Assembly (NCBI GenBank): GCA_964016885.1
Contig: OZ024741.1
Coordinates: forward strand, 65,472,001-65,536,000
Length of the DNA stretch: 64,000 nucleotides
From: Eledone cirrhosa
Lineage: Eukaryota
Reading direction: 5' to 3'
Part shown: positions 25,920-64,000 of the stretch, in pieces
Position numbering within the stretch: the stretch's first letter is position 1
Layout: the number at the start of each line of letters is the position of its first letter
The notes under the pieces: generated by a model
Database searches by the model: none
The model's input: the letters and a program-made list of their open reading frames with translations, nothing else
What the model was told of the DNA's origin: nothing
Position numbers and translations under genes: made by a program

Positions 25920-27014
25920 ATCATCATCATCATCATCATCAACGTTTAACGTCCGTGTTCCACGCTTGCATGGGTTTGGACGGGGGTAGTCCCACTTGAG
26001 GCAAGAGTGATTGTCTTGCTCGCATAGGACTGTCTGGCAGGTTTTCTACAGCTGGATGCCCTTCCTAACACCAACCACATTTACAGTGTGGGTCTGGGAG
26101 GTTTTTACCGTGTTGCCTACACGGCCACATTACAGCGTGGACTGTGTGTTTTTTTGTCGTGACACCTACACGATCTCATTTGTTTCGGCCTCGATGGCGC
26201 GGCACCAACATAACTTTACATAGAACGGGGTGGTGTGGATGGGGTGGGGGTGGGGGTGGTGGGACGGGGTGTATTTTGTTAGAGATGCCTACTGGCTGGA
26301 GTAGGTTTTACTATATATTTAGGTAAGGCGGGTCTTCTCTGTTACTGAGTACCGCCAAAGGTCTCGGTCCAGTGACATTGTCTTGGAGAGGTGTAAGTGT
26401 GTGATGTCGGAGTTTATCAGCTCGTCCCAGGTTTTTCTAGGTCTGCCTATTCCGTGACTACCGTCTATCTTTATTGCCCTGCACTTTGTTATACAGCTAT
26501 CGACTTTCATGCGCATCACGTGACCGTACCAACGTAGCCTTCTCTCAAGTAAACAACATCTGATCCCTCTTATCTCTAATTTTTTCCTTAGTTCGTTTAT
26601 GCTTTGCCGTTCACGTATATTACTGTTACACATCCAGCGGAGCATGCAAGCTTCGTTCCTCTCTAGTCTGCGTATATCCTCTGCACACAATGCCCAGGTC
26701 TCACTGCCATGCAGCATTGCTGTTCGTATGCAGGCATCGTACAACCTGCCTTTCATTTTTAGGGAGAACCCTTTAGCAGCCAATAGTGGTATAAGCTCTC
26801 TGAACTTTTTCCATCCAGTTCTGACTCTAGCTACTGTACTTTCAGAGCACCCTCCCCCACTGCTGATTTTATCGCCCAGGTAACGGAAGCTGTCCACTAT
26901 TTCTATAGAACCCTCTGCGCAATTGAAAGAGCTAGTAGTTTGTGGGCACTTGCTGCTACTTATTGCACCAGAGCACCGGCCACATGTAAAATCTATGTTC
27001 TTAGTTAGCTTACC
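25920..27014 (-). mobile_element. 5'-truncated RTE LINE, (TA)n at both ends
   Basis: ORF DSFRYLGDKISSGGGCSESTVARVRTGWKKFRELIPLL...RRLRWYGHVMRM; 3'UTR; (cat)n tail. Confidence 0.95.
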
Positions 27015-27134
27015 ATATATATATATATATATATTCCTCGTTCTCTATAATAATATACTCCGCTCCGCGTGAGCATCGAGTGCTCAAACGGCATACCACC
27101 TACGGACGCATTTATTGCAACTTTACAACAACTA

Positions 27135-27465
27135 TATATTAGTATTGGTGCTCTGAAATAGCGATGTATACATGAATGTATCTATAGTATATTTGTCAAT
27201 ATATTGTATGTTTGATTAAAAACATTTTGAAGATCATTCGCTATGAGTTTTAAAGTAGTAACTATGTCACTTACTTATTCTTGGCAAAATCAAAGAAGAG
27301 TGATCGACAGCTGTTTTTCACTCATTAGCGTTTATCAAGACCATTCACTCCCTTGCTTCTGCTGAGATTTATAGAAGCTGGATTCTTATAGAATTCCAGT
27401 AATATTTAAGAGCTGATTAAACAGAGTGGTTGCAGGTCCAGCAAAAATTAGGTATTATATATACA
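27135..27465 (-). mobile_element. Penelope pLTR derivative with degenerate U3-A8 HHR
   Basis: Homologous to 49270-49535; minus strand ggtc-TTGATAA-acgctaatgagt-gaaaaac-agct-GTC-gatc at about 27300-27342. Confidence 0.6.
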
Positions 27466-27475
27466 TTCATATATA

Positions 27476-29037
27476 TCATCATCATCATCATCATCATCAG
27501 GTTTAGTGTCCGTGTTCCACGCTTGCATGGGTTTGGACGGGGGTTTTCCCACTTGAGGCAAGAGTGGCTGTCTTGCTCGCATAGGACTGTCTGGCGGGTT
27601 TTCTACAGCTGGATGCCCTTCCTAACACCAACCACATTTACAGTGTGGGGCTGGGAGGTTTTTACCGCGTTGCCTACACGGCCACATTACAGCGTGGACT
27701 GTCTGGCGGGTTTTCTACAGCTGGATGCCCTTCCTAACACCAACCACATTTACATTGTGGGGCTGGGAGGTTTTTACCGTGTTGCCTACACGGCCACATT
27801 TACAGCGTGGACTGTGTGTTTTTTTGTCGTGACACCTACACGATCTCATTTGTTTCGGCCTGGATGTTGTGGCACCAACATAACTTTACATTGAAAGGGG
27901 CGGTGTGGATGGGGTCGGGGTGGTGGGACGGGGGTGTATTTTGTTAGAGATGCCTACTGGCTGGAGTAGGTTTTACTATATATTTAGGTAAGGCGGGTCT
28001 TCTCTATTACTGAGTACCGCCAAAGGTCTCGGTCCAGTGACATTGTCTTGGAGAGGTGTAAGCGTGTGAGGTCGGAATTTATCAGCTCGTCCCATGTTTT
28101 TATGGGTCTGCCTATTCCGTGGCTACCGTCTATCTTTATTGCCCTGCACTTTGTTATACAGCTGTCGTCTTTCATGCGCATCACGTGACCGTACCAACGT
28201 AGCCTTCTCTCAAGTAAACAACATTTGATCCCTCTTATTTCTAATTTTTTCCTTAGTTCGTTTATGCTTTGCCGTTCACGTATATTACTATTGCACATCC
28301 AGCGGAGCATGCAAGCTTCGTTCCTCTCTAGTCTGCGTATATCCTCTGCACACAATGCCCAGGTCTCACTGCCATGCAGCATTGCTGTTCGTATGCAGGC
28401 ATCGTATAACCTGCCTTTCATTTTTAGGGAGAACCCTCTAGCGGCTAATAGTGGTATAAGCTCTCTGAACTTTTTCCATCCAGTTCTGACTCTAGCTACT
28501 GTACTTTCAGAGCACCCTCCCCCACTGCTGATTTTGTCACCCAGGTAACGGAAGCTGTCCACTATTTCTATAGAACCCTCTGCGCAGTTGAAGGAGCTAG
28601 TATTTTGTGGGCACTTGCTGCTACTTATTGCACCAGAGCACCGGCCACATGTAAAATCTATGTTCTTAGTTAGCTTACCTGTGATCCCACTACATCTTTT
28701 ATGCACCCATACTTTGCATTTGGGACATAAAATGGAGTTTCTACCTACGCCTTTCCTACACACTGAGCATGGCCATTTCCCAGATGGGACCGCCGCCTTA
28801 TTTTCTTTCCTACAAACTAGAACTTTAGTCTTAGCCAGGTTAATTTTAAGGCCTTTTGATTCTAGGCCGTGCTTCCATGTTTGGAACTTCTTCTCTAGTT
28901 CGGTCATTGATTCAGCTATGAGCGTTAGATCATCTGCGTATAGGAGTTCCCATGGGCAGCCGGTCTTGAACTCCTCTGTTATAGCCTGAAGGGCAATAAT
29001 AAATAGTAGGGGGCTAAGAACAGAGCCCTGATGGACA
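27476..29037 (-). mobile_element. 5'-truncated RTE LINE with open ORF2 C-terminal part (RT + PHD insert)
   Basis: About 350 open codons from HQGSVLSPLLF...LLYADDL to the stop at 27984; 112-bp duplication in the 3'UTR; TA runs at both junctions. Confidence 0.95.
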
Positions 29038-29054
29038 TATATATATATATGTAT

Positions 29055-29260
29055 AACGAAGGAATTGTGGTAAGGAACCAGATGGACCATAACACACCAG
29101 AGTACTCAATACTTAGGGTAGTAGAGTGGGAAATAGGAAAAAGTATGACCCAGACGGCAGAGCTCAAGCCATTTCAACAGCTATTTCTGGACTATAAATA
29201 GTTCAGAAATAGCCATCGAAACGGCTTGAGCTCTGCGTCGGGGGTCATACTTTTTCCTAT
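29055..29260 (-). mobile_element. Naiad pLTR 3' end with ~60-bp inverted arm (hairpin 29133-29260)
   Basis: Left arm matches the Naiad terminus at 62459-62520; right arm is its reverse complement; TA-flanked. Confidence 0.75.
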
Positions 29261-33936: not shown

Positions 33937-35631
33937 CATCATCATCATCATCATCATCATCGTTTAACGTCCGTGTTCCACGCTTGCATGGGTTTGGACG
34001 GGGGTTTTCCCACTTGAGGCAAGAGTGATTGTCTTGCTCGCATAGGACTGTCTGGCGGGTTTTCTACAGCTGGATGCCCTTCCTAACACCAACCACATTT
34101 ACAGTGTGGGACTGGGAGGTTTTTACCGTGTTGCCTACACGGCCACATTACAGCGTGGACTGTGTGATTTTTTGTCGTGACCCCTACACGATCTCATTTG
34201 TTTCGGCCTGGATGTTGTGGCACCAACATAACTTTACATTGAAAGGGGCGGTGTGGATGGGGTCGGGGTGGTGGGACGGGGGTGTATTTTGTTAGAGATG
34301 CCTACTGGCTGGAGTAGGTTTTACTATATATTTAGGTAAGGCGGGTCTTCTCTATTACTGAGTACCGCCAAAGGTCTCGGTCCAGTGACATTGTCTTGGA
34401 GAGGTGTAAGTGTGTGAGGTCGGAATTTATCAGCTCGTCCCAGGTTTTTCTGGGTCTGCCTACTCCGTAGCTACCGTCTATCTTTATTGCCCTGCACTTT
34501 GTTATACAGCTGTCATCTTTCATGCGCATCACGTGACCGTACAAACGTAGCCTTCTCTCGAGTAAACAACATCTGATCCCTCTTATTTCTAATTTTTTCT
34601 TAGTTCGCTTATGCTTTGCCGTTCACGTATGTTACTATTACACATCCAGCGGAGCATGCAAGCTTCGTTCCTCTCTAGTCTGCGTATATCCTCTACACAC
34701 AATGCCCAGGTCTCACTGCCATGCAACATTGCTGTTCGTATGCAGGCATCATACAACCTGCCTTTCATTTTTAGGGAGAACCCTTTAGTGGCTAATAGTG
34801 GTATAAGCTCTCTGAACTTTTTCCATCCAGTTCTGACTCTAGCTACTGTACTTTCAGAGCACCCTCCCCCACTGCTGATTTTGTCACCCAGGTAACGGAA
34901 GCTATCCACTATTTCTATAGAACCCTCTGCGCAATTGAAAGAGCTAGTATTTTGTGGGCATTTGCTGCTACTTATTGCACCAGAGCACCGGCCACATGTA
35001 AAATCTATGTTCTTAGTTAGCTTACCTGTGATCCCACTACATCTTTTATGCACCCATACTTTGCATTTGGGACATAAAATGGAGTTTCTACCTACGCGTT
35101 TCCTACACACTGAGCATGGCCATTTCCCGGAAGGGACCGTCGCCTTATTTTCTTTCCTACAAACTAGAACTTTAGTCTTAGCCAGGTTAATTTTAAGCCC
35201 TTTTGATTCTAGGCTATGCTTCCACGTTTGGAATTTCTTCTCTAGCTCGGCCATTGATTCAGCTATGAATGTTAGATCATCTGCGTATAGGAGTTCCCAT
35301 GGGCAGTCGGTCTTGAACTCCACTGTTGTAGCCTGAAGGGCAATAATAAATAATAGGGGGCTAAGAACAGAGCCCTGATGAACACCAACTTTTACACTAA
35401 ACTCTTCACTATATTCGTTGTTAATTCTAACCTTGCTGACTGTTTCTTTATACATGGCTTGTATAGCTCTCACAAGCCATTCGTCAACACCTAGTTTTCT
35501 AAGAGCCCACCAGATAATGGAACGGGGGACTCTGTCAAAGGCTTTCTCCAAGTCAACAAAAGCTAAGTATAGGGGTTTACTTTTAGCTAGGTACTTCTCC
35601 TGTAGTTGTCGCACAATGAAAAGAGCGTACA
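33937..35631 (-). mobile_element. Longest RTE LINE copy (RT + PHD insert), one frameshift
   Basis: LFIVRQLQEKYLAKSKPLYLAFVDLEKAFDRVPR...GVHQGSVLSP...YADD; frameshift near 34590; truncated at a TA run. Confidence 0.95.
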
Positions 35632-35796
35632 TATATATTTAATTATGTTGACAAATGAATTCACATCAAGCAAATTAAACTGACCATTTCAATTATATTC
35701 AACACCCTGTTTCACATATATAGGAATACTATAAAATTATTCCTCTGTAGATAACCTCTGAAACGTGTAAAACAATGTTTTACTGAGTACAAAAGT

Positions 35797-49230: not shown

Positions 49231-49263
<33 letters not shown>

Positions 49264-49432
49264 AATATATATTAGAATTGGAGCTCTGAAATAGCAATAT
49301 ATATATGGATGTATATATAATGTATTTTGCAATACACTTTATGCTTAATTAAAAGCATTTTGAAGACCGTATGCTATTGTTTTAGAGTAGTGACAAATTC
49401 ACTTACTTTAATCTCAGCAAACAGGGGAGATA

Positions 49433-49478
49433 AGCCGACAAGGGCCTTGTTTCGCTTTTGTTGAAGCTTATCAAGGCT
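49433..49478 (-). ncRNA. Type I hammerhead, U3-A8 variant
   Basis: agcc-TTGATAA-gctt caacaa aagc-GAAA-caaggccctt-GTC-ggct. Confidence 0.75.
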
Positions 49479-49552
49479 AACTACCCCTCCTGTCTACTGA
49501 GATTACTGATGTTATATTCTTATAGAATTCTAGTAAATAAGGAGGGGTAGTT

Positions 49553-49598
49553 AGCCTTGATAAGCTTCAACAAAAGCGAAACAAGACCCTTGTCGGCT
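49553..49598 (+). ncRNA. Type I hammerhead, U3-A8 variant
   Basis: agcc-TTGATAA-gctt caacaa aagc-GAAA-caagaccctt-GTC-ggct; stem I extends via agggg/cccct. Confidence 0.75.
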
Positions 49599-49822
49599 TA
49601 TCTCCCCTGTTTGCTGAGATTAAAGTAAGTGAATTTGTCACTACTCTAAAACAATAGCATACGGTCTTCAAAATGCTTTTAATTAAGCATAAAGTGTATT
49701 GCAAAATACATTATATATACATCCATATATATATATAAATATATATATATGAGTTTCAGAAGATCCCGTTAAGGGTGAAAGCAGCGATTCTTTGCTTAAA
49801 CTTTAATCTGTTACTTTAATAA

Positions 49823-61147: not shown

Positions 61148-61641
61148 GCATGTGTATGTATACAATATTTTTATCAGACTAAGTGTGTCTATGTATGTAT
61201 CTCCTCATTGTATTTGATACCATCTACACATCCATCACACCACCATAATCACCATTACCATAAACAACACCACACCCACACCACACACAATAATCAGCCA
61301 CAAATATACGCCAATCTGTCTACCGACAATCCACCACCCGCACAACACAGCCCATCTCAGCCTGTGACCGTCACCACCATCTTATCGTCACATCCATCCC
61401 CACATGCACTATAGGCGAAAACATCCCTATGATCTATTCCACCAATCAAAACAATCCTTATTGACCAACATATGAACTGCTGACTTTATCATATAGCATG
61501 TATTCATTTTCTACTAGCATTTTAAGGGGTCCGTCGAGCTGGGGATTACAGAGTCGGGTAAGATCGATACAGATTGAACCTTGAGCTGATCAGTGACGAA
61601 ACGCGCGTCACCAACCAATAAATGTAATGAAGGAGTAACCA

Positions 61642-61899: not shown

Positions 61900-62425
61900 A
61901 CACACACACATATTTGTTGTGAAAGAGTCATTTCTCAATCTTGGCGCAAAACCAATTTTTTATCCACATGACCTCTACCGACCAATCAAAATTGTTTTGA
62001 CCAAGAATTTTTGCTGGAGCCACTTTTTTAACATAAAACCAGTCTTGGCGCAAAATCAACTTTTTACATTCACATGACCTCTACCGACCAATCAAAATTG
62101 TTTTGACCACAAGCATTTTTGCAACACAAAAATAACGCTGGAGCCACTTTTTTAACATAAAAACAGGTAGAATTCCCAAAACTAATCAGATCAGAGCAAA
62201 CAGCACGGACACTCTATCTCAAAATTATTTTTGAAAAGCATTTAGAAATGCGCAACCGGTAAAAACTTAAAAACTTAAAACCACAACTGAATACTAACCC
62301 ATACAATCACTAATACTCTTTTATTCCTAATTAAACCATTTTTCAACTGTGAACAATTTGTCAGCATTTTCTATTCCGTTTACCAATATATAATAACTTG
62401 TGTGTTACACCTCTATTCTTTTAAC

Positions 62426-62463
<38 letters not shown>

Positions 62464-62473
62464 AAAATGTTTA

Positions 62474-62568
62474 ACCCCGACAGCAGAGCTCAAGCCGTTT
62501 CGACAGCTATTTATGGACTAAATTAGAATTTTTAGCGTGGTAATAAATAGCCGAACTTTTCAAGGGGT
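62474..62568 (-). ncRNA. Type I hammerhead, U3-A8 variant, in the Naiad pLTR
   Basis: acccc-TTGAAAA-stem II (ggctatttat/ataaatagct)-GAAA-cggc ttgagctct gct-GTC-ggggt. Confidence 0.75.
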
Positions 62569-63174
62569 AATTCCTTATATGGGAAGATTGTAGTTGTCAA
62601 AAGGATTGGTCAAAATTTCTTGTAAACACAATTAAGTCTTTCTTGGTGGTAGGTGGGAGGTGGGGGTGGCTGAACTTGCCTGTGGAACAATGAGGGAGTG
62701 GGTGGAGCCAGTCAAGAGTTGAAAGTGAATTCTATACAGCAAATTCTAAGGAGTGTGTATGAAATTAGGCTAGGTAGTAAGCAGGCGAAAAAGAATTCTG
62801 GGGGAATTTGAGAGTGGGACGTTATAAAATTAAAAGGTTAATTAACTGAGATTAAAAGATAAATAAAAAATAATAAAAAAATTAAACAGTAACAAATAAT
62901 AAAAAATCTCTAGAGTCTAAAGCAGCTGTTATATTTTTAGCTGGTATTGCGTTTTTGGCCAATGCTATATAGAATTTACTGAGGCTACAAAAGCCAGATG
63001 GGCTGCCTCAGGGTAGGTGAAAGAGGAAAAAGGAAAAGGAAGAGGAGAGGGAGTGGAAGGAAGTGAGAAGAAGAGATAAAGGGAAAAAGTAAAAAAGTAC
63101 ATCTACCTATGTATGCTGGAGTTTTCCCTATCTTGTTCGGCAAGTGGGGAAAAGAAGGATGTTGCAGCCATTGT

Positions 63175-63999
63175 CTACCCACCCGGGTCATGAGGGTGTT
63201 TGAGGGTGAGGTAAGTCCTACGCAATCGGTGTCTACATGCAGTTACAAGTTCGTCTTTTTTGTTTAGGAGTTGGTCCTTCGTAAACAGCATTTATATTGT
63301 TTCCCCCAAGCATAAGTTACACGGACGGCGACCTCCCGTGTAGGGGTTAGCCCTGGATAGTAAGCTCCAAGTAAGGTGGTATGTTATGTTGTTATCTTGG
63401 AGGTCTCAGATGTGGCCTGAAAGTGTAGTGGCATGACGCCGGGCCGGGTTTCGGAATGTAAGTCGGTGTTGGTAGAGCCGGGTCTTAAAGTTACAAGCGG
63501 TTAATCCTATATAGGCTTTGTTGGAGTTTTCCGTCCTCACGTTGCATTGGTAGATCACGTTACATTCTCGGCATTTGTTATTGAGGAGGCATGTAGATCT
63601 ATCAGGGTAGTTACACCTCCTGGTCGACTCTCCACTAATGTCTAGGTTGTTTCTTCCATACGAGTTGAGTTTCTTGTTGTTTGAGGAGGTGATGTTTTGT
63701 GCGAAGTTGGGTGTGGTGCTGTAAGAGAGTTTGATAGCGTTTTTGTTCATTATGTTGTGGTAACGGTGTTGTGGTGGGAAGTGTTTTTCGAGGAGCCTAA
63801 AGAAGATTTTCCTGATTGGTGTTACCACCTCGGCATTGTGGGGAGGGTTGAACCATGTTACGTGGCGTGAGCGGCAGCGTCGCCTGCTGGTTCCGTTAAG
63901 GAAAGCTGGATAAAAAGAGATTTCCTCCCGAAAGTCGCTTTGCTTGAAGGCCTGATTGTAATAAGGCGCATGTTCATCGAATATCTGCTCATTAGCGGA
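63175..63999 (-). pseudogene. Naiad ORF C-terminus: RT thumb, Cys linker and GIY-YIG endonuclease, two in-frame stops
   Basis: Single frame with TGA at 63406-63408 and a TAA near 63293; natural-looking stop at 63175. Confidence 0.85.
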
Positions 64000-64000
64000 C

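What the first reader, a model, noticed from the sequence alone, without database searches (positions are those of the whole stretch)
62474..62568. Naiad terminus uses a U3-A8 covariant hammerhead core, shared with non-coding derivatives
Seen: the core reads UUGAAAA instead of CUGANGA, with stems I-III, GAAA and GUC all present. UUGAUAA occurs at 49433-49478, 49553-49598 and about 27300-27342. Known: positions 3 and 8 form a Watson-Crick pair in the active fold, so C3-G8 to U3-A8 is compensatory. Inference: recurrence in otherwise dissimilar sequences indicates selection for catalysis. Strict CUGANGA searches would miss this class, which may be abundant in this genome.
Basis: partly seen in the sequence, partly recalled or inferred. 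Interest (0 to 1): 0.75.

Follow-up and report, generated by a model that had tools for sequence, protein, structure and literature searches.

The report
Hydra-type Penelope hammerhead, U-A core
This is the end of a broken copy of a known kind of animal jumping gene (Hydra-type Penelope element, not Naiad) that carries a predicted self-cutting RNA with an already published U-A swap in its core; a quarter of its family spread with that pair mismatched, so cutting is likely helpful but not essential for jumping.

Summary
The motif is real: a type I hammerhead on the minus strand, core UUGAAAA, and U3-A8 is the family state. The label is wrong. The element has RT first and GIY-YIG last, with RWR, DKT, CxCx5C and TA targets, so it is Hydra clade, not Naiad. 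Natural U3-A8 cores are published, including in Penelope-like elements (PMC3088659, PMC4209133). The cited non-coding motifs are not derivatives of this element. Two are arms of one inverted insertion, the third is a damaged sister copy, and all belong to a separate 318-nt retrozyme-like family. Genome-wide, paired states dominate for short-helix cores (U-A 25,015; C-G 13,236; mismatches 392 and 503), which supports selection. Against strict selection: 1,740 of 7,070 core matches in this family have C3, nearly all opposite A8, and the lineage's trunk ran U3-A8 to C3-A8 and back. Copies cross the cut site, and most stop in helix II. No cleavage was tested. The scan noted the Hydra reading, the mismatch subfamily and the retrozymes before, on other DNA of this genome.

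The parts
62474..62568 (-). Type I hammerhead motif, U3-A8 core (UUGAAAA 62563-62557), long helix II, predicted cut between 62479 and 62478
   Evidence: two G-C to G-U changes against close relatives
62460..62478 (-). Short fixed end of the insertion, 17-20 nt past the predicted cut, joined to (TA)n
62569..63174 (-). 3' UTR of the Hydra-clade element (about 600 nt here; about 1,150 nt in the youngest subfamily)
63175..64000 (-). 3' part of the broken RT-EN ORF: RT thumb, linker (CxCx5C with one Cys lost) and C-terminal GIY-YIG with CxxC and CxH. The ORF continues past the window end to an ATG about 1,376 nt beyond it
   Evidence: 81-83% amino-acid identity to an intact 717-aa copy
29053..29260 (.). 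Tiny twin (inverted) insertion of the same Hydra family; both arms stop in the 3' strand of helix II and lack the U3-A8 core
49263..49734 (.). One inverted insertion of a young 318-nt non-coding tandem unit (retrozyme-like) with two UUGAUAA hammerheads (49433-49478 minus, 49553-49598 plus)
27130..27450 (-). Older subfamily copy of the same 318-nt unit; UUGAUAA core kept, GAAA changed to AAAA, so predicted inactive
62141..62263 (+). Relic of another abundant repeat with a minimal UUGAAAA hammerhead (palindromic CCGG helix III); GAAA reads GCAA here

Best explanation
The motif is a type I hammerhead with a U3-A8 core at the terminal repeat of a Hydra-clade Penelope-like retrotransposon; it likely can cut tandem read-through RNA into 3.5-kb units, but the element likely copies itself from RNA that is continuous across the cut site, so cutting is probably favoured rather than required. 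Shown: domain order; head-to-tail units of 3,542-3,543 nt with one hammerhead each; a predicted cut 190 nt before the ATG; two fixed ends about +17-20 and +97-100 nt past the cut, in (TA)n; copies that run through the cut site; and most arms ending in helix II. Inferred: the GIY-YIG nicks (TA)n on both strands and RT starts at two internal sites, as shown in vitro for a Poseidon element; the template is an uncut multimer or a re-ligated circle; helix II stalls the RT. The window copy is an old, ORF-broken member.
For: RT then C-terminal GIY-YIG, with RLRWR, SDKTG, CNCPDRSIC, CNLC and CKH in an intact copy, matching the Hydra definition and the Hydra-1_Obim motifs by eye. Position 7 takes A, C, G and U while 4, 5, 6 and 9 stay fixed (105, 105, 105 and 107 of 107 rows). 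Genome-wide short-helix cores against reversed-pattern controls: U-A 25,015/622, C-G 13,236/99, U-G 392/307, C-A 503/214. The trunk returned to U3 in the youngest subfamily. The 318-nt family keeps its helices through two-sided changes at 10 of 23 pairs, with U3-A8 in 10 of 10 rows. 12 of 16 near-full-length arms cross the cut site (chosen for long frames, so biased), and 0 of 23 arms in 600 kb of evenly spaced DNA begin at it. PMC11167929: ribozyme mutants did not change insertion in vitro, and two internal RT starts explain the tail. Six of 114 tail-anchored arms begin within about 2 nt of the cut site (biased set, weak hint of some cleavage).
Against: No cleavage was measured, and no usable RNA reads exist (one 200-nt RNA contig). 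1,740 of 7,070 family cores carry C3, with A8 in 99 of the first 100; about 27% of contig depth shows C3 in one DNA sample. Within the family the helices show no covariation above shuffles (474 of 500 as high). The young copy folds no better than shuffles (z -0.46). Pfam and PDB gave no usable hit, so the domain calls rest on motif comparison with the published alignment. Circle and uncut multimer cannot be told apart here.
Confidence: 0.65

Rival explanations
1. Cleavage is essential. The C3-A8 subfamilies either keep enough activity (for example a C-A wobble, or help from G7 or the protein) or were moved in trans by U3-A8 elements.
For: G7 accompanies C3 in 95 of the first 100 matches; the youngest subfamily is U3-A8 again; no short-helix family with a mismatch is abundant.
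Against: C3-A8 copies form successive trunk steps (one clade rejected, p-AU 8e-8), so C3-A8 RNAs themselves were copied. Some carry their own EN region. HHR mutants do not affect insertion in vitro in another PLE clade.
Confidence: 0.2
2. The fold is kept mainly as a structure (a protein landing site, or a brake that stops most cDNAs in helix II), and catalysis is vestigial in this family.
For: 17 of 23 unbiased arms (15 scored, 2 by eye) and 24 of 30 others end in the 3' strand of helix II. The helix III word occurs 67,602 times against 7,070 core matches. Contig depth falls about tenfold there and not at the cut site.
Against: U4, G5, A6, A9, GAAA and GUC stay fixed while N7 drifts, which is the catalytic signature. 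A stall may be a by-product of a long hairpin.
Confidence: 0.12
3. Naiad element whose own non-coding derivatives share the hammerhead.
For: TA targeting and twin insertions are shared with Naiads.
Against: The EN is C-terminal, the motif is DKT rather than DKA, and there is no N-terminal GIY-YIG. The 318-nt unit has no homology to the element.
Confidence: 0.02

Closest known systems
Hydra clade of C-terminal EN+ Penelope-like elements (Craig et al. 2021, PMC8557442), e.g. Hydra-1_Obim
   Same: Single RT-EN ORF; RWK-like, DKT, CxCx5C, CxxC and CxH motifs; no CCHH; (TA)n target; 3' hammerhead.
   Different: All 26 Hydra rows of File S2 have C3-G8 cores and short helix II (found with a canonical descriptor). 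This family has U3-A8 or C3-A8, a helix II region of about 55 nt, a 5-bp helix III, and units up to 3.5 kb.
U3-A8 hammerheads of Schistosoma Cercyon PLEs (PMC4209133) and natural U3-A8 variants (PMC3088659)
   Same: Same covariation, also in PLE terminal repeats.
   Different: Those in PMC4209133 are minimal, dimer-type motifs. This one has a full helix III and could fold as a monomer.
Poseidon PAc of Anolis (Frangieh et al. 2024, PMC11167929)
   Same: Two fixed ends downstream of the ribozyme (tail); template not cut at the ribozyme.
   Different: Other clade; C3-G8 core; its cut lies inside the ORF, here 190 nt before the ATG; the tail here is 80 nt.
Animal non-LTR retrozymes (PMC7229834; bioRxiv 10.64898/2026.07.22.740005)
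   Same: The 49.5 kb and 27.3 kb elements are about 318-nt non-coding tandem units with one type I hammerhead each.
   Different: U3-A8 core; their RNA circles were not shown here.

Membership tests
Naiad PLE | GIY-YIG N-terminal to RT | tested here: not met
   The EN motifs lie in the last 140 of 717 aa
Naiad PLE | DKA motif | tested here: not met
   SDKTG (definition)
Naiad PLE | (TA)n preference and twin insertions | tested here: met
   shared with Hydra, so not diagnostic
Hydra-clade PLE | Single ORF, RT with C-terminal GIY-YIG | tested here: met
   717-aa ORF, by motif comparison; no Pfam hit
Hydra-clade PLE | RWK-like and DKT motifs | tested here: met
   RLRWR, SDKTG
Hydra-clade PLE | CxCx5C linker; CxxC and CxH around E and N; no CCHH | tested here: met
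   CNCPDRSIC, CNLC, CKH in the intact copy; second Cys lost in the window copy
Hydra-clade PLE | Generally shorter than 3 kb | tested here: inconclusive
   Window copy 2.9 kb, young unit 3.54 kb
Hydra-clade PLE | Placement in an RT phylogeny with reference clades | not tested
   Reference proteins were seen only as cut supplement text
Type I hammerhead ribozyme | Helices I-III, UGAN-A, GAAA, NUH site | tested here: met
Type I hammerhead ribozyme | Watson-Crick pair between positions 3 and 8 | tested here: met
   U-A in the window copy and about 75% of family cores; not met in the C3-A8 subfamilies
Type I hammerhead ribozyme | Self-cleavage | not testable with these tools
   No raw RNA reads
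Non-LTR retrozyme (49.5 kb and 27.3 kb elements) | Short non-coding tandem unit with a type I hammerhead | tested here: met
   318-nt period, covarying helices
Non-LTR retrozyme (49.5 kb and 27.3 kb elements) | Expressed as circular RNA | not tested

The most novel reading that the evidence does not exclude
The family is a natural knock-down and rescue of a PLE ribozyme. Its master lineage broke the 3-8 pair (C3-A8), kept making well over a thousand copies through several subfamilies, then restored U3-A8. Meanwhile helix II aborts about three quarters of cDNAs. Cleavage would then be dispensable for PLE jumping in vivo, and the ribozyme would act partly as a brake on its own element.
Probability: 0.35. 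Interest if true: 0.6.

Novelty: new member of a known kind. Interest (0 to 1): 0.33.

Why it matters
The U3-A8 swap itself is published, so the flagged point is ordinary. What has value is that the role of hammerheads in Penelope-like elements is still open. This family offers dated natural alleles (UUGAAAA, UUGACAA, UUGAUAA, CUGAGAA, UUGAGAA) and young intact copies for a direct test of whether cleavage is needed. In practice, hammerhead surveys of this genome should allow U3-A8 and long helix II: the short-helix pattern alone gives about 25,000 matches, and this family adds 5,330.

Tried and rejected
Rfam gave no hit at 62.5 kb. Pfam and PDB gave nothing usable for the protein. Expression: the only RNA run held 6% of words and laid one 200-nt contig at 90-95% identity, so it is no evidence either way. 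A claim that U3-A8 outnumbers C3-G8 was rejected: it depends on my pattern. In 600 kb of evenly spaced DNA a looser descriptor gave 49 C-G and 19 U-A hits, 10 of the latter from one A/T-rich satellite that I judge false. Covariation inside the Hydra family is not above shuffles. One search used a mis-registered structure and is replaced. The EN-region tree (44 rows plus two long outgroups) did not resolve the C3 rows. Derivation of the 318-nt unit or of the CCGG-type repeat from this element was rejected; the 592-nt repeat also gave no match. Paper searches for mutant rates at C3-A8 found nothing relevant beyond PMC11167929, which tests other mutants. Przybilski and Hammann 2007 and Lunse et al. 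2016 were not held; they were seen only in reference lists.

Full report
Observation. The minus strand at 62568-62474 holds a complete type I hammerhead motif: ACCCC, UUGAAAA, a 55-nt helix II region, GAAA, helix III, GUC, GGGGU. The predicted fold is the three-way junction (z -1.98). It ends 17 nt later in (TA)n. Among 41 close copies from 30 loci (30 of the 46 matches), all have U3 and 40 have A8 (read by eye).

The element. Beyond the window end (L031) the ORF starts about 1,376 nt past base 64000. It reads RT first and GIY-YIG last, and is broken by stops, frameshifts and a short duplication. Young intact copies exist. One array has four units of 3,542-3,543 nt with a 717-aa ORF, one hammerhead per unit, and the predicted cut 190 nt before the ATG. 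Its motifs (RLRWR, SDKTG, GLYRDDG, CNCPDRSIC, VIY...YIG without CCHH, CNLC, CKH) are those that define the Hydra clade (PMC8557442 section 11; alignment excerpts). Naiads have an N-terminal EN and DKA. Pfam and PDB gave no usable hit and no RT tree was built, so the assignment rests on motifs and domain order. The host is a 3.0-Gb animal genome; earlier scan notes call similar elements octopus, which I did not check.

The non-coding motifs. 49433-49478 and 49553-49598 are arms of one inverted insertion of a young 318-nt tandem unit. The 27.3 kb motif belongs to an older subfamily of the same unit (200 identities, 71 mismatches) and has lost G12. Neither resembles the Hydra element beyond the core. 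Across 10 rows that I picked to span subfamilies, 10 of 23 pairs change on both sides, 94% of cells pair, 0 of 500 shuffles reach the score, and U3-A8 never varies (structure drawn from the window row). This is a retrozyme-like family with its own conserved hammerhead; its coding partner was not identified. The true non-coding offshoots of the Hydra element are tiny twin insertions such as window 29053-29260, and these lack the core.

Is the 3-8 pair selected? For cores with a short helix II, genome-wide counts against reversed controls are U-A 25,015/622, C-G 13,236/99, U-G 392/307 and C-A 503/214. These count copies, not events, but the first 100 U-A matches include several unrelated helix II sequences. 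A second Hydra-like family (35-44% amino-acid identity) ends in the same kind of core: one fetched copy with coding remnants reads CUGAGAA and its relatives read UUGAGAA. A third remnant has CUGAGGA. The pattern excludes this long-helix family and favours U-A families; in 600 kb of evenly spaced DNA, C-G hits outnumber credible U-A hits 49 to 9.

Against strict selection. In the Hydra family itself there are 5,330 U3 matches (98 of the first 100 with A8) and 1,740 C3 matches (99 of the first 100 with A8, 95 with G7). Contigs of one DNA sample show about 27% C3 and no listed variant at position 8. A tree of 100 of 120 terminal regions (20 dropped for truncated upstream sequence; core columns removed) is a ladder: UUGAAAA (window subfamily, about 4% from its majority), UUGACAA, UUGAUAA, several CUGAGAA steps, then the youngest UUGAGAA and UUGAUAA (0.4-1%). 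One clade for the 22 CUGAGAA rows is rejected (p-AU 8e-8). The group was named after an earlier tree, the root is the oldest subfamily, and recombination was not excluded. That C3-A8 lowers activity is inferred from the need for the pair (PMC3088659 section 8; other single mutants in PMC11167929); I found no measured rate.

How it likely works. Insertions end at two fixed points about +17-20 and +97-100 nt past the cut site, in (TA)n. This matches the two internal RT starts shown for Poseidon PAc, where ribozyme mutants did not alter insertion. cDNAs run through the cut site: 0 of 23 unbiased arms begin there (four arms of a more distant sister family left out), and 12 of 16 near-full-length arms continue into the previous unit (selected for long frames). 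The template is therefore likely an uncut multimer or a re-ligated circle, as proposed in PMC4209133. Six of 114 arms in a biased set begin within about 2 nt of the cut, a weak hint that some RNA is cleaved. Most arms end in the 3' strand of helix II: 17 of 23 and 24 of 30. The helix III word occurs 67,602 times, and contig depth drops about tenfold there. An RT stall at the long helix is my inference.

What is known. Natural U3-A8 covariation is reported in PMC3088659 (passages and section 8 read) and in PLEs in PMC4209133 (parts 1-2 of 4 read; about 1,300 hits). In PMC8557442 (passages, sections 3 and 11, supplement parts 1-2 and search hits) all 26 Hydra rows are C3-G8, and relaxed cores found nothing more in Naiads. 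Also seen: PMC11167929 (parts 1-2 of 4), PMC7229834 and PMC6765202 (passages), bioRxiv 10.64898/2026.07.22.740005 (part 1 of 5; its supplements are closed). The supplements of the 2011 and 2014 papers were not read and may list more cases. Searches showed no paper on a U3-A8 or C3-A8 Hydra family, but most subscription journals are not covered. Earlier scan notes in this genome had the Hydra reading, the mismatch subfamily and the retrozymes. My Hydra reading was on record, and the C3-A8 result came.

Verdict. The motif is real, the clade is wrong, the variant is known, and the derivatives are unrelated. New member of a known kind; interest 0.33, carried mainly by the testable natural allele series.

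Noticed in passing
window 29053-29260; genome-wide: Tens of thousands of tiny twin insertions of the Hydra family stop in helix II. Among the first 100 matches, 22 of 27 minus/plus pairs lie 22-60 nt apart and none lie 61-433 nt apart.
   Followed up: partly
L096-L264: The 3' UTR grew from about 650 to about 1,150 nt along the subfamily ladder.
   Followed up: no
L182-L183 (C1 array): Four near-identical units alternate 3,542 and 3,543 nt, which suggests a duplicated dimer. A 55-nt piece of the ORF is repeated many times upstream.
   Followed up: no
window 62141-62263; L124-L148: The most abundant short-helix U3-A8 family is a minimal, dimer-type hammerhead (helix III CCGG, site GUA) in a repeat with no Hydra-like coding match.
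   Followed up: partly
L179:792-1590; L122: A second Hydra-like family ends in a short hammerhead, mostly UUGAGAA.
   Followed up: partly
L299, L319, L343: A diverged sister family with the same tail and a different helix II also forms short twin insertions.
   Followed up: no
L338:1089-2273: A 592-nt tandem unit with a UUGAUAA core and a long helix II that begins with a similar bulge; no blastn match to the Hydra unit.
   Followed up: partly
window 61580-61615: Weak Rfam Hammerhead_1 match (E 0.87) reading CUGAUCA, probably a damaged copy of another family.
   Followed up: no
L187, L209: Some arms skip helix III between two copies of a repeated hexamer, which suggests RT template jumps.
   Followed up: no
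window 26319-29105, 34589-35638: Several LINE-like RT fragments on the minus strand (family not tested).
   Followed up: no
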